Source of the DNA: a virus
Lineage: Duplodnaviria; Heunggongvirae; Uroviricota; Caudoviricetes
Virus record (IMG/VR): IMGVR_UViG_2880395615_000010
DNA length: 64,000 nucleotides
Strand: one strand, 5' to 3'
A program made the position numbers. Below, one piece after another: positions 36,001-39,000 of this stretch (within the stretch, counting starts at the first letter, position 1; the number at the start of each line of letters is the position of its first letter).

Positions 36001-39000
36001 GTTTTGACGCCTGTCGTAGCGGCGTATTTCTCCGTCTGGTAATGACCAGATAAGGTCAGGATCAACCACAGATGGTTTCTTCAGATTTGCCCTTGAGAGT
36101 TTTTTGCGGGCGTTTTGCCAGTCCTTACGCGCCTGTTCAGACGGGAACAACCCGTAACCAGAGTTGTATACATCGCCGCTGGCAACCAGCTCTCTTGCGA
36201 GAACGCTCATCAGATATCTTGTCGCACCTGTCTTGACTTCCAGTTGCCGTAACGTCTCACGCCCACTCTGGCGTACGAGTTCAACAACCTGCCCTTTAAT
36301 TTTTTCTCGCTCTTCTTGTGTAAAAACTTTTGCCACAAGTCCTCCTGAAAATTACCTCATGACCAGAAATCAACACTTACCCCCTGAAGCCCAGTGGAAT
36401 TTCGGTATCTGGTTCAGAAATGTGATTCACGCAACGCTGGTTGTTCGTACCGCTTACCGGGAGCAACCAGGGGTTCTCAAAATTCCGGTCCGGTCCTAAA
36501 AACGTCGTCGCTCGCTGAACAAATTCCGTTCCCGTTTTCCCGGTAGCCGCCAAGTATCTTGCGTAACGCCTCACGCCATCCAGCATGGCCTCTGGTGGCA
36601 CCCCCTCGCGTAATCTGGCCTTCCAGGCACTGAAAGCGGATTTCTTCGGGTTTGCTCCGGCACGCAACGGGTACTCCCGCCAGACCTGTTCGAACACATC
36701 CGGATAATCCACTCGTCCCACAGACTGCCCGGTGTTTTCCGGGACTACCCGATCGGCTTCCCGCAGAATGGCGGAATCGGCTTCAGGCTGCTGCAGTTGG
36801 TGTGATTGCTCCGGCCTTGCGGTCATCACCTGCTGCACAGCGCCCGAATCGGCTTTCAGCGCATACGCTGAATCGGCTTCCGGTGTCGTGCCTGCTGGCT
36901 GACCAAGATTGACGGTCTGAACATCCCCTGCCTGGTTCGTGGCGTTTTTTACGCCATGGACCATAGTGTTTTGATCTTCTTGATCTGTATCTTTATCTGT
37001 ATCTTTATCTGTCGTTACTCGTCGTGACATGTGCGTGACATTTCGTGACGCGCCGTGACAATCGCCATTTTGTTCCCGCTTTCTTTCCCTCTCTCGCTGC
37101 GCCCTCTTGCGCTCTGCAGGAGATTTTGCGGTTTGCGAAATATTGCCGTTGTCCTCTTTAAGCACCTGGCGTTTTTCCCATCCAGTGATTAAATCACCAT
37201 CAAGTACCCGCCCCTGCATCGTCTGCAAAATTGAATCAATTACCTCTTCTGTCACGTCGAGCGCACTTGCCAAATCTTCTGTCGTGACATCAATGTGACC
37301 TCGCGTGACATTTCGTGACGCGCTCACCAGGAGGTGGATATACACTGCCATCACTGTTGCAATTGGCTGCCCTGACACCCTGGCAATTGTTCGCCACTTA
37401 GGGTCATTTGGCATGTCATGCCATAATCTGAGCCAAGCGTTAGCCATACTCACCTCTTCTGATACCGAATCTTTTTACTCACGAGTTGCCGGAAGCGATT
37501 CGATATGGCTATTGTCAGTCAATGTACTGCCACAGCATTTCCTGCCGGGCCACCACGGTTCATCTGATTGAAACCGGCGATTGCCACTGCGACAAAATCA
37601 TCAGCGTCTCTCACCAATCGCTCCCGCGTCTCCACCAGCTCCCGAAAATAAGCTGAACTGTGGCTGCGCATTCTGGCCACCAGCAAAGGTGGCATTGCCT
37701 TTTCGATCGCTGGTAACAACGCCTGAATTTTTTCAACTGCATCAGGGGTGTCTTTCTCTACCCAGCGGAAAATTTTCTGGGTATTGCGAGCCAGGGCTTC
37801 CGGATGGCTGTCGTCATACAGTTCAGGAAACGTCATACCCAACTCAAAATAAGCCTGGGTTATTCCAGCTGCTGGAACTTTTTCGCCATCAGGACGCGCC
37901 CAGGCATTCATCGCCATGCGGATGTGTTCATGCTTGATTTTCATGAATCAAGCTCCTAGTAAGTGGTTGTGTTAACGTTTTGGTATCTTCCAGCTCGGGC
38001 CAAATATTCATCCAATCAAAAGGCCTTAGTTGCTGACGTGTAACTTCACCATTACTGGCTCGCTCAATAAGGACACATAACGATGCCCCTAAGATTTGAC
38101 CTTTACTCAATGCCTTTCTTAGATAACCGATGCTAGTACCACACTCACATGCAAACATACGCTGTTCATCTGACGAAAGAGAATTGAGAAATATTCTTAA
38201 TTCTTCCATAGCTACTCCTTAGTAAACACAGCAAAGAATACCCACAGGTAAACAAAAGTCAATACCCCTAGGTTGTTTACCTTGCGGTAATCGCATCTAT
38301 TATTTACCTATGGACAAATATGAATTTAGACGACAACAACTCATCAAAATTCGTGATGAGAAATGCGATGGTAAAGCGGTTAACGTGGCCAGAAAGATCG
38401 GTCGCGAGCCTTCTTATGTATCAAGAATGTTGTACCCAGAGGGGAAAAAAGGAAAAAAACGGATCGCTGATGATATGGTGGAGATTATAGAAGAGTCCTT
38501 TGGGTTACCCCGGGGATGGATGGATGGTATCGTTTCATCATCAACGAACACAGCCTCCAATTATGAAACAAGGGTTCTAACGCCACGACAACGTATTTTT
38601 TTAGATCTCTTAGACGAACTGCCAGAAAGTGAAGCGGATAACTTATTAAAAACTCTTGAAGAGAAAAAACAGTATTACAATATGATCTACGAAGAAATCC
38701 GTAAAAAGAAAGCACAAAACGCATCATAACTCACCAAACAACCAGTCACCAGTTAAGACACATCAAAAAAAATTACCCATGGGTATTTACTTTTTAAATA
38801 CCCATGGGTATCCTTCCTTTCATACCAACCCACCCCGTCCCGCAGAACGCAGGGCAATACTTCGAGTTACCAGGCAGTGGTCAGGGGTTAAGTAGCCAGC
38901 CCGAGGCGTAAGAACATGACGGCAGGGTTCAACTTTAATAACTATGCAGCAGGTTTTTGTTCCGCTACCCCGGCGTTAAGGGGAAATGAGGTCAACATGG

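What the first reader, a model, noticed from the sequence alone, without database searches (positions are those of the whole stretch)
36970..37330. Iteron-like direct repeats inside the O-like replication gene
Seen: CGTGACA cores repeated at least five times in two clusters about 270 bp apart, including two identical 21-mers (GCGTGACATTTCGTGACGCGC at 37033-37053 and 37303-37323), plus an adjacent tandem tctgtatctttatc repeat encoding DKDTDKDTD. Established: in lambda the origin lies inside gene O as iterons bound by O protein. Inference: this is the prophage origin; the two-cluster arrangement could be a duplicated origin or a bipartite binding array.
Basis: partly seen in the sequence, partly recalled or inferred. 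Interest (0 to 1): 0.45.

Follow-up and report, generated by a model that had tools for sequence, protein, structure and literature searches.

The report
Two-part replication origin inside initiator gene
The repeats are real and are most likely the replication origin of a very common E. coli prophage: one set of initiator-binding sites next to an easily melted AT-rich stretch, plus a second, co-evolving set further upstream in the same gene whose role is unknown.

Summary
The minus-strand gene 36377-37453 is a phage replication initiator (PHROG 3729, no Pfam hit, no detectable homology to lambda O). It carries two arrays of the 6-bp core GTCACG, with sites spaced 10-11 bp.

- **Array B** (37013-37059) has 4 exact sites and 1 degenerate site. 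It abuts a 30%-GC, purine-skewed GATAAA/GATACA tract (36967-37012).
- **Array A** (37283-37319) has 4 sites and lies 260 bp upstream, with one inverted site at 37251-37256.

All six one-turn-spaced core pairs in the 64-kb window lie in this gene.

In 59 homologous genes from many proteobacterial genera, 43 have at least 3 periodic sites at both places. The core is always the same at both, although it differs between lineages (GTCACG, GTAACG, CGAACGC). Synonymous positions inside the cores are frozen (p = 6e-7). The same core is read in all three frames.

These are therefore DNA sites, most likely for the gene's own N-terminal winged-helix-like domain. B plus the AT tract matches the lambda origin layout at the same codon positions. 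A has no AT tract and is absent in some relatives, so it is an accessory array, not a duplicated origin.

A second, unrelated initiator family shows the same two-array layout. No binding or replication experiment exists.

The parts
36377..37453 (-). Replication initiator gene. It is 358 aa from the GTG at 37453. The likely real start is the ATG at 37447, preceded by GAGG, which is the start RefSeq uses. Residue numbers in this report count from the GTG; subtract 2 for the ATG start.
   Evidence: ORF. PHROG 3729 'replication initiation protein', E 8.7e-256. No Pfam family. It lies in a cI / cro / cII-like / initiator / DUF977 gene order. It is full length in 1646 of 5426 complete E. coli genomes, annotated 'hypothetical protein' in all seven full-length RefSeq rows shown.
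37013..37059 (-). Array B, the distal array and proposed origin core. Coding-strand GTCACG sites lie at + coordinates 37054-59, 37044-49, 37034-39 and 37023-28, plus a degenerate GTAACG at 37013-18. Spacing is 10, 10, 11, 10 bp. It covers codons 132-147, in a segment predicted to be disordered.
   Evidence: Array B is present at the same gene position in 47 of the homologues examined, each with its own lineage's core. AlphaFold pLDDT is below 50 for residues 133-165.
36967..37012 (-). AT-rich, purine-skewed tract, the proposed DNA-unwinding element. The coding strand reads ACAGATAAAGATACAGATAAAGATACAGATCAAGAAGATCAAAAC and encodes TDKDTDKDTDQEDQN. It contains the 12-nt tandem repeat. It is also the junction between the N-terminal and C-terminal gene modules.
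   Evidence: GC is 0.30-0.33 here against about 0.55-0.6 around it. In 47 homologues the 40 nt after the last B site have median GC 0.30 against a gene median of 0.55, and a median purine fraction of 0.78; nearly all begin with AGATA(A/C)AGATA. GAT and AAA codons are almost fixed there, even in GC-rich hosts. The homology break falls at about 36972.
37283..37319 (-). Array A, the proximal accessory array. Coding-strand sites are GTCACG at 37314-19 and 37304-09, GTCACA at 37294-99 and GTCACG at 37283-88. Spacing is 10, 10, 11 bp. It covers codons 45-57, that is the end of helix 31-47 and the loop/strand before the helix-turn-helix.
   Evidence: Codons overlapping the cores are fixed across 22 non-redundant genes from many genera: GTC, ACG, GGT, CAC, GTC and ACG are each 22 of 22. 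The core changes in step with array B in other lineages.
37251..37256 (+). A single inverted copy of the core, 33 bp downstream of array A. The coding strand reads CGTGAC (codons 66-68, DVT).
   Evidence: Val67 is GTG in every GTCACG-type gene that has Val there (22 of 22; 20 of 20 in the non-redundant set). A GTGAC occurs at this place in most homologues.
36933..36963 (.). Imperfect palindrome just past the AT-rich tract, at the start of the C-terminal module. It may be part of the origin, or a terminator-like hairpin on the antisense strand.
   Evidence: the + strand RNA hairpin is -22.1 kcal/mol with z -5.4, and the sense strand has z -2.2. Only 14 comparable hairpins occur in 64 kb. One compensatory pair change is seen in Stx phage 75/02, but three inner pairs are lost in E. 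coli 132. The evidence is moderate only.

Best explanation
This is the replication origin of the prophage, embedded in its initiator gene.

**Proposed mechanism**
- Monomers of the initiator's N-terminal winged-helix-like domain bind the 6-bp GTCACG cores.
- The cores are spaced one helical turn apart, so bound proteins line one face of the DNA.
- The oligomer assembled on array B (37013-37059) destabilises the adjacent GATAAA/GATACA tract (36967-37012).
- The variable C-terminal module then brings in the replicative helicase. This prophage encodes no helicase or loader of its own next to the gene, so that would be host DnaB with DnaC.
- Array A (37283-37319, plus the inverted site at 37251-37256) is a second set of sites for the same protein, 260 bp upstream and inside the DNA-binding-domain coding region. 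It most likely reinforces or regulates the array B complex, for example by looping, by titrating initiator, or by blocking transcription or forks. It is not a second origin.

**Shown here**
- The sites exist.
- They are selected as DNA rather than as codons.
- Both arrays change core together between lineages.
- The AT-rich tract always follows array B only.

**Inferred**
- Who binds the sites.
- That unwinding happens in the AT-rich tract.
- How the helicase is recruited.
- What array A does.
For: 1. **Clustering.** The clustering is far above chance.
2. **Not a peptide repeat.** Within each array the same hexamer is read in all three frames: frames 2, 0, 1, 0 in A and 1, 2, 0, 2 in B.
3. **Frozen synonymous sites.** In 22 non-redundant genes, codons whose third base lies in a core have mean entropy 0.17 bit, and 7 of 10 are invariant. 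The 61 other conserved degenerate codons average 1.50 bit, and none is invariant. Mann-Whitney p = 6e-7 (codon table).
4. **Conservation across hosts.** The layout is kept across Escherichia, Shigella, Aeromonas, Pseudomonas, Serratia, Bordetella, Chromobacterium, Acidovorax and others.
5. **Concerted change.** 43 of 59 genes have at least 3 periodic sites at both places, found de novo and independently for each place. In all 43 the two places share one core: GTCACG, GTAACG(C) or CGAACGC. The eight rows flagged 'diff' are overlapping 5-mers of one 7-mer.
6. **Core follows the protein, not the host.** Core type tracks the N-domain sequence. Pseudomonas, Serratia and Pantoea each carry more than one type.
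7. **Universal AT tract after B.** An AT-rich, purine-skewed tract follows array B in 47 loci. GAT and AAA codons are fixed there.
8. **Same positions as lambda.** Array B lies at codons 132-147 and the AT tract at codons 148-163. In lambda O the iterons span codons 117-145 and are followed by a 38-bp AT-rich region (PMC3349717).
9. **Tolerant protein segments.** Both arrays sit in coding stretches for a loop or a disordered segment.
10. **No RNA structure.** RNA folding of the arrays is unremarkable, z -0.92 and +0.94.
11. **Precedents.** Origins inside the initiator gene are known or proposed for lambda, P22 and phage L (six 11-bp repeats) (PMC8022706) and for SPP1 oriL in gene 38 (PMC5737612, PMC6316719).
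Against: - No experiment shows binding, unwinding or autonomous replication for this family, and I found no paper on it.
- The N-domain model is of medium confidence (pLDDT 72.7). Its fold matches to winged-helix regulators are not significant, E > 0.4.
- Array A is missing in some relatives that keep array B (L040, L056, L061; reduced arrays in L030, L032, L052). Array A is therefore dispensable in some contexts, and its role is open.
- The helical phase between arrays A and B is not conserved across lineages. Gaps of 191-247 bp give various phases (hand arithmetic on the coordinates). This argues against a rigid phase-dependent loop.
- Plasmid records carrying the gene are prophages within large plasmids or circular phage genomes. 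They give no natural test of autonomous replication.
Confidence: 0.78

Rival explanations
1. Array A is mainly a regulatory operator, not part of the origin. Initiator bound inside the 5' part of its own gene would block transcription from the early rightward promoter (autorepression and dosage control). Alternatively it would act as a one-sided fork barrier that makes replication unidirectional.
For: Array A has no AT-rich tract: GC is 0.45-0.50 around 37240-37330. It is dispensable in some relatives. It ends with an inverted site whose synonymous position is also fixed, which would suit a boundary or roadblock. In SPP1, initiator bound at a second site (oriR) is proposed to stall forks (PMC6316719).
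Against: Nothing here distinguishes regulation from origin reinforcement, and the two are not exclusive. No promoter-like site overlaps array A.
Confidence: 0.3
2. The two clusters are two independent origins, that is a duplicated origin.
For: The window has two identical 21-mers, and both clusters show the same 11, 10, 10 bp spacing.
Against: Only array B is followed by an AT-rich tract, in the window and in 47 homologues. The two-cluster layout is shared by distant lineages with different cores, so it is not a recent duplication. In other homologues the corresponding 21-mers are not identical.
Confidence: 0.05
3. The repeats are a by-product of coding. A repeated peptide (SRNVT, seen twice) or ordinary conservation of the protein would explain them, with no role for the DNA.
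For: ASRNVT is encoded at both clusters. The N-domain protein is well conserved.
Against: Within an array the hexamer is read in three different frames. Synonymous sites in the cores are invariant while neighbouring conserved codons vary freely. Array B peptides differ between homologues while the DNA cores and their spacing are kept.
Confidence: 0.03
4. The sites are bound by something other than the initiator, such as a host factor or another phage protein, or they act in the mRNA.
For: No binding data exist. The conserved AGATAAAGATA tract after array B is independent of core type and might bind a common factor.
Against: Core type changes with the N-domain lineage, not with the host genus. 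No DnaA box lies in the array/AT-tract region; the nearest match in the window is at 36317-36325, just downstream of the gene. RNA folding of both arrays is no better than shuffled sequence, and no Rfam family matches.
Confidence: 0.05

Closest known systems
Phage lambda ori-lambda inside gene O
   Same: The origin lies inside the initiator gene. Repeated initiator sites sit at the end of the N-terminal (DNA-binding) half and are followed immediately by an AT-rich tract in the direction of transcription. Codon positions nearly match: lambda iterons at codons 117-145 against array B at codons 132-147 (PMC3349717). The gene order is the same: cI, cro, cII-like, initiator.
   Different: There is no detectable sequence relationship: no Pfam Phage_rep_O hit, and hhalign probability 0.1%. 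Lambda has four 18-bp palindromic iterons 20-24 bp apart in a single cluster. Here there are 6-bp direct cores 10-11 bp apart in two clusters. Lambda has gene P next to O; here DUF977 follows and there is no loader gene.
Salmonella phage L gene 18 (proposed origin; P22-like phages)
   Same: Short tandem repeats of about one helical turn lie inside the initiator coding region: six imprecise 11-bp repeats, proposed as the origin from sequence alone (PMC8022706).
   Different: The repeat sequence (TGTCCAACGGA) and the protein are different. Only one repeat region is described. I did not examine that gene myself.
Bacillus phage SPP1 oriL in gene 38 (replisome organizer G38P)
   Same: The origin is embedded in the organizer gene and consists of direct repeats plus an adjacent AT-rich unwinding element. 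The organizer has no AAA+ domain. A second set of sites for the same protein exists (oriR) and is thought to have a non-initiating role (PMC5737612, PMC6316719). Some databases name the window protein's relatives 'phage replisome organizer'.
   Different: hhalign finds no similarity, probability 0.1%. The Pfam families differ. The second SPP1 site is about 13 kb away and has its own AT-rich tract. Here the second array is 260 bp away, inside the same gene, and has no AT-rich tract.
Two-array iteron replicons: P1 incC/incA, F, and satellite phage P4 ori/crr
   Same: Two separate arrays of the same initiator-binding repeat lie in one replicon. One is at the site of opening and the other is auxiliary or regulatory.
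   Different: In those systems the arrays flank the initiator gene or lie kilobases apart, in non-coding DNA. Here both arrays are inside the coding sequence, and one is inside the part that encodes the DNA-binding domain.

Membership tests
Lambda O family (Pfam PF04492 Phage_rep_O) | Sequence membership of the N-terminal domain | tested here: not met
   No Pfam hit at E <= 0.01, whereas lambda O scores 5.7e-36. hhalign of the family profile against lambda O gives probability 0.1%.
Lambda O family (Pfam PF04492 Phage_rep_O) | Iterons inside the gene, followed by an AT-rich region | tested here: met
   Array B and the AT-rich tract. The codon positions are comparable to lambda.
Lambda O family (Pfam PF04492 Phage_rep_O) | Iterons of about 18 bp with internal dyad symmetry, spaced about two turns apart | tested here: not met
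   The sites are 6-bp direct cores spaced 10-11 bp.
Lambda O family (Pfam PF04492 Phage_rep_O) | Adjacent P-type helicase-loader gene | tested here: not met
   The next gene is DUF977 / Ren-like. The same holds in DEC5B and in phage Tritos.
PHROG 3729 'replication initiation protein' | Full-length profile match | tested here: met
   E 8.7e-256 over residues 3-358.
SPP1 G38P-type replisome organizers (PF09681 / PF09524) | Sequence membership | tested here: inconclusive
   No Pfam hit and hhalign probability 0.1% against G38P. However, there are weak PHROG matches to 'replisome organizer' and 'DnaD-like helicase loader' families: phrog_4880 at 4.5e-6 and phrog_10469 at 7e-10.
Iteron-type origin (functional class) | Several direct repeats in helical register, selected as DNA | tested here: met
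Iteron-type origin (functional class) | Repeat sequence co-varies with the initiator's DNA-binding domain | tested here: met
   Three core types (a possible fourth, GTGACGC, occurs in L057), each shared by both arrays of a gene.
Iteron-type origin (functional class) | Adjacent AT-rich unwinding element | tested here: met
   This applies to array B only.
Iteron-type origin (functional class) | Initiator binds the repeats; the fragment supports replication | not testable with these tools
   Needs footprinting and a replication assay.
Bipartite iteron replicons (P1, F, P4 type) | Two separate arrays of the same repeat | tested here: met
Bipartite iteron replicons (P1, F, P4 type) | The second array controls or is required for initiation | not testable with these tools
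   Needs genetics. Natural loss of array A in L040, L056 and L061 suggests it is not essential.

The most novel reading that the evidence does not exclude
Placing a second iteron array inside the part of the gene that encodes the DNA-binding domain may be a general, independently evolved design of temperate-phage initiators. The same layout appears in a second initiator family with no detectable sequence similarity: AAGGGGCTT sites at gene nt 186/197 and again at nt 430-464, just before an (EQ)n tract.

The design would physically lock the binding domain to its own sites in highly mosaic genomes, where the module junction falls in the low-complexity tract. The embedded array could also serve as a template from which the origin array is rebuilt by gene conversion; the two identical 21-mers in the window would fit that.

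A stronger version: the loop encoded by array A helps read the core.
Probability: 0.15. Interest if true: 0.7.

Novelty: new variant of a known kind. Interest (0 to 1): 0.45.

Why it matters
This initiator gene is present at full length in about 30% of complete E. coli genomes, including the O55:H7/O157 lineage and Shigella, and in phages of Pseudomonas and Aeromonas. The RefSeq rows shown call it 'hypothetical protein', and no origin is annotated.

- **Annotation and engineering.** A sequence-level definition of the origin (core, spacing, unwinding tract, module junction) gives a handle for annotating and engineering these prophages.
- **Cross-talk prediction.** It allows prediction of cross-talk between co-resident prophages that share a core type.
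- **A testable puzzle.** The conserved second array, which co-evolves with the first and recurs in an unrelated initiator family, raises a concrete question: why keep initiator sites inside the coding sequence of the initiator's own DNA-binding domain?

Tried and rejected
- **Pfam, NCBIfam and solved structures.** No Pfam family, and only a sub-threshold DnaT C-terminal match in NCBIfam. The Protein Data Bank sequence search found nothing. Foldseek on the N-domain model gave only non-significant winged-helix hits.
- **Homology to other initiators.** hhalign against lambda O, SPP1 G38P and the second E. coli initiator family showed no relationship.
- **'Self-encoded specificity'.** The positions that separate GTCACG from CGAACGC lineages lie in the array-A-encoded loop (47-57) and at 103-110, not in the predicted recognition helix. 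However, relatives lacking array A still use CGAACGC. The loop residues may therefore be passengers, and I kept this only as the low-probability novel reading.
- **Helical phasing between the arrays.** It is not conserved (hand arithmetic), so a rigid loop is not supported.
- **The GAAGCCGATTC repeats (36752-36883) as alternative iterons.** Rejected. All copies are in one reading frame at 24/72/24 bp, and they travel with the C-terminal module into genes with an unrelated N-domain.
- **Other sequence elements.** DnaA boxes, promoters and Rfam families gave nothing relevant in the gene.
- **mRNA structure.** It does not explain the frozen synonymous sites.
- **Plasmid records as a natural replication test.** Uninformative.
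- **Literature.** The Eru papers on Stx-phage replication regions mention neither iterons nor this protein. Searches for GTCACG iterons found nothing relevant. One paper look-up and one search failed on term format. Two first scripts failed on file names.
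Full report
**Setting.** The finding lies in the minus-strand ORF 36377-37453 (358 aa from a GTG). The ATG at 37447 behind a GAGG is the likely start and is the one RefSeq uses. Residue numbers below count from the GTG.

The gene order is that of a lambdoid early region:

| Gene | Window coordinates | Strand |
|---|---|---|
| cI-like repressor | 38310-38729 | + |
| cro-like | 37928-38209 | - |
| cII/YdaT-like | 37519-37944 | - |
| this gene | 36377-37453 | - |
| DUF977 / Ren-like | 35914-36336 | - |

The protein matches PHROG 3729 'replication initiation protein' over its full length (E 8.7e-256). 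It has no Pfam family and no detectable similarity to lambda O or to SPP1 G38P. It is therefore O-like in position and presumed role, not by descent.

The same gene is 100% identical in E. coli O55:H7 DEC5B. It is full length in 1646 of 5426 complete E. coli genomes, where every full-length row shown is labelled 'hypothetical protein'. It also occurs in sequenced temperate phages such as Tritos, Evi and vB_EcoS-689R5.

**The observation.** On the coding strand the core is GTCACG.

| Element | + strand coordinates | Sites | Spacing (bp) | Codons |
|---|---|---|---|---|
| Array A | 37283-37319 | 3 exact + GTCACA | 10, 10, 11 | 45-57 |
| Inverted site | 37251-37256 | 1 | n/a | 66-68 |
| Array B | 37013-37059 | 4 exact + GTAACG | 10, 10, 11, 10 | 132-147 |

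The arrays are 260 bp apart in register. Eight of the window's 45 CGTGAC hexamers lie within 300 bp. All six GTCAC pairs spaced 10-11 bp in the 64-kb window are here, against a mean of 0.22 in shuffles.

Directly after array B comes a 46-bp tract with 30-33% GC and a strong purine skew on the coding strand. It contains three copies of a 12-nt unit and encodes DKDTDKDTDQEDQ.

**DNA element or coding by-product?** Three results settle this.

- *Reading frames.* With a 10-11 bp spacing, the same hexamer is read in all three frames within each array. It is therefore not a peptide repeat. SRNVT appears twice only because two sites of A and two sites of B happen to share a frame.
- *Synonymous sites.* I compared 22 non-redundant homologues that use GTCACG (58-99% protein identity, many genera).

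| Codon class | Columns | Mean codon entropy | Invariant columns |
|---|---|---|---|
| Third base inside a core | 10 | 0.17 bit | 7 |
| Other conserved degenerate codons | 61 | 1.50 bit | 0 |

  The difference gives Mann-Whitney p = 6e-7. For example, Val49 GTC, Thr50 ACG, Gly52 GGT, His53 CAC, Val56 GTC and Thr57 ACG are fixed in 24 of 24 genes. Leu41, Val43, Ala62, Ser63 and Leu65 each use 4-5 codons. Val67 GTG, which creates the inverted site, is also fixed.
- *RNA structure.* Folding of either array is no better than shuffled sequence (z -0.92 and +0.94), and no Rfam family matches.

**Who binds?** I collected the gene from three phages and 60 genome loci. I then searched de novo, and separately in the two regions, for the k-mer with the longest chain at one-turn spacing.

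- 43 of 59 genes have at least 3 periodic copies at both places, and in all 43 the core is the same at both.
- The core differs between lineages: GTCACG, GTAACG(C) or CGAACGC. L057 carries GTGACGC but has only two sites in array A.
- All cores share ACG(C) and differ in the three bases before it.
- Core type follows the N-domain sequence, not the host: Pseudomonas, Serratia and Pantoea each carry more than one type.

Concerted change of both arrays with the adjacent DNA-binding domain is what one expects if the gene's own product binds both. This step is an inference; no binding data exist.

An AlphaFold model of residues 1-165 (pLDDT 72.7) shows the following:

| Residues | Predicted element |
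|---|---|
| 4-16, 18-27, 31-47 | helices |
| 48-57 | loop / short strand |
| 58-65, 69-79 | helices |
| 80-91 | hairpin |
| 112-129 | basic helix |
| 133-165 | disordered |

This is a winged-helix-like layout, but the fold matches to MarR/MntR-type regulators are not significant. Array A thus encodes the end of a helix and a loop. Array B and the AT-rich tract encode a disordered linker. These are places where the protein can tolerate constraints imposed by the DNA.

**Why array B plus the tract is the origin core.**
- In 47 loci the 40 nt after the last B site have median GC 0.30 against a gene median of 0.55, and a median purine fraction of 0.78 on the coding strand.
- Nearly all begin with AGATA(A/C)AGATA, whatever the core type or host.
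- GAT and AAA are almost the only Asp and Lys codons used there, even in GC-rich Bordetella, Acidovorax, Castellaniella and Chromobacterium.
- The order 'initiator sites, then an AT-rich tract in the direction of transcription', and the codon positions, match lambda. The lambda iterons span O codons 117-145 and are followed by a 38-bp AT-rich region where DnaB is loaded (PMC3349717).
- Origins embedded in the initiator gene are also known or proposed for P22, for phage L (six 11-bp repeats, the closest format) and for SPP1 oriL (PMC8022706, PMC5737612, PMC6316719).

**What array A is.** It is not a second origin. No AT-rich tract follows it, and the two-array layout is ancient rather than a recent duplication. 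It is under strong DNA-level selection. Yet some relatives keep only array B (L040 with seven CGAACGC sites, L056, L061; reduced arrays in L030, L032, L052). It is therefore an accessory array.

Copy number varies by in-frame 21-bp steps, that is two sites or two helical turns. The E. albertii variant has six sites in A and five in B.

The phase between the arrays is not conserved across lineages (hand arithmetic), so a rigid loop is unlikely. Cooperative capture of initiator, autoregulation by roadblock and a one-sided fork barrier all remain open. Neither lambda O nor SPP1 gene 38 shows a second cluster in the repeat search.

**Module structure.**
- The same N-module (domain, arrays A and B) is joined to a different C-terminal module in E. 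coli OkiPb01704. That module has a Pfam DnaT domain and is followed by a P-like gene.
- The window's C-module is joined to an unrelated N-domain in E. coli 132 and in Stx phage 75/02, where a DnaC-like gene follows.
- The junction falls in the low-complexity tract, at about 36972.
- Just past it, at the start of the C-module, lies an imperfect palindrome (36933-36963). As RNA it folds best on the antisense strand (z -5.4), and it has weak, mixed comparative support.
- In the window, in DEC5B and in phage Tritos no helicase or loader gene follows the initiator. Host DnaB with DnaC, or the PriA-type primosome, is presumably used. This is an inference.

**An unexpected parallel.** The unrelated N-domain family just mentioned (hhalign probability 0.5% against this one) has the same design. 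AAGGGGCTT occurs twice at gene nt 186/197, inside the domain. It occurs two or three more times at nt 430-464, directly before a purine-rich (GAACAG)n tract. This holds in 54 distinct IMG/VR variants. The sampled variants are close (77-100% identity), so this rests on pattern rather than on a substitution test.

**Verdict.** The core of the finding is an ordinary kind of thing: an iteron origin inside a phage initiator gene. It is well supported here for an initiator family that is very common and largely unannotated. The part that goes beyond known cases is the conserved second array, which co-evolves with the first and sits inside the DNA-binding-domain coding region. I therefore rate it a new variant of a known kind, of moderate interest, with all mechanistic steps after 'these are selected DNA sites' still to be tested.

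Noticed in passing
L067 gene 1199-2290 (-), L064 gene 2501-3589 (-), L071-L150: A second initiator family with an unrelated N-domain but the same C-terminal module also has two arrays of one motif. AAGGGGCTT occurs twice at gene nt 186/197, and two or three times at nt 430-464 just before an (EQ)n purine-rich tract. In Stx phage 75/02 the distal array is inverted.
   Followed up: partly
window 36933-36963: An imperfect palindrome lies just past the AT-rich tract. The antisense (+ strand) RNA hairpin is -22.1 kcal/mol with z -5.4 and is followed by a weak U-run. One compensatory pair change occurs in Stx phage 75/02, and three inner pairs are lost in E. coli 132. Several distant homologues (L013, L020, L022, L033, L043, L057) also have a 9-11 bp hairpin shortly after their AT-rich tract.
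   Followed up: partly
window 36752-36883: Four copies of GAAGCCGAT(T/C) lie at spacings of 24/72/24 bp, all in one reading frame (peptides EADS, KADS, EADS, EADR). Two copies occur in the Stx phage 75/02 gene, which shares only the C-terminal module. This looks like a linker peptide repeat, not a set of iterons.
   Followed up: yes
window 35914-36376; L065, L066: No helicase or helicase-loader gene follows the initiator; DUF977/Ren-like follows directly. This holds in the window, in E. coli DEC5B and in phage Tritos. Relatives have a DnaC-like, DnaB-like/primase-helicase or lambda-P-like gene at that place.
   Followed up: partly
window 36377-36448 (last 24 codons): The C-terminal tail ISEPDTEIPLGFRG is conserved in proteins with otherwise different C-terminal halves (for example SEPDTHIPPGFRG and STPDRSIPPGFRG). 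It gives a weak, sub-threshold match to the C-terminus of primosomal protein DnaT (E 0.0077).
   Followed up: no
window 36967-37012 and the same place in 47 loci: The tract after array B is more than AT-rich. It starts almost everywhere with AGATA(A/C)AGATA hexamer repeats, whatever the iteron type, host or C-terminal module. It also contains two GATC sites in the window. It could be a specific single-strand or host-factor site.
   Followed up: no
L046 and L058, gene nt 320-480: Two distant homologues (Serratia, Pantoea) have CTACGTAG-type palindromic repeats at the array B position. These are followed by an inserted segment that by eye resembles a GIY-YIG nuclease motif (YVYYV...VGIS.NPW.R). 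This was not tested.
   Followed up: no
one search hit list: Very many database entries for this protein in E. coli are 'partial' (clusters with hundreds to more than 1000 members on contigs shorter than 4 kb). This suggests that draft assemblies often break inside this gene, probably because several co-resident prophages carry near-identical copies (up to 5 places per genome).
   Followed up: no
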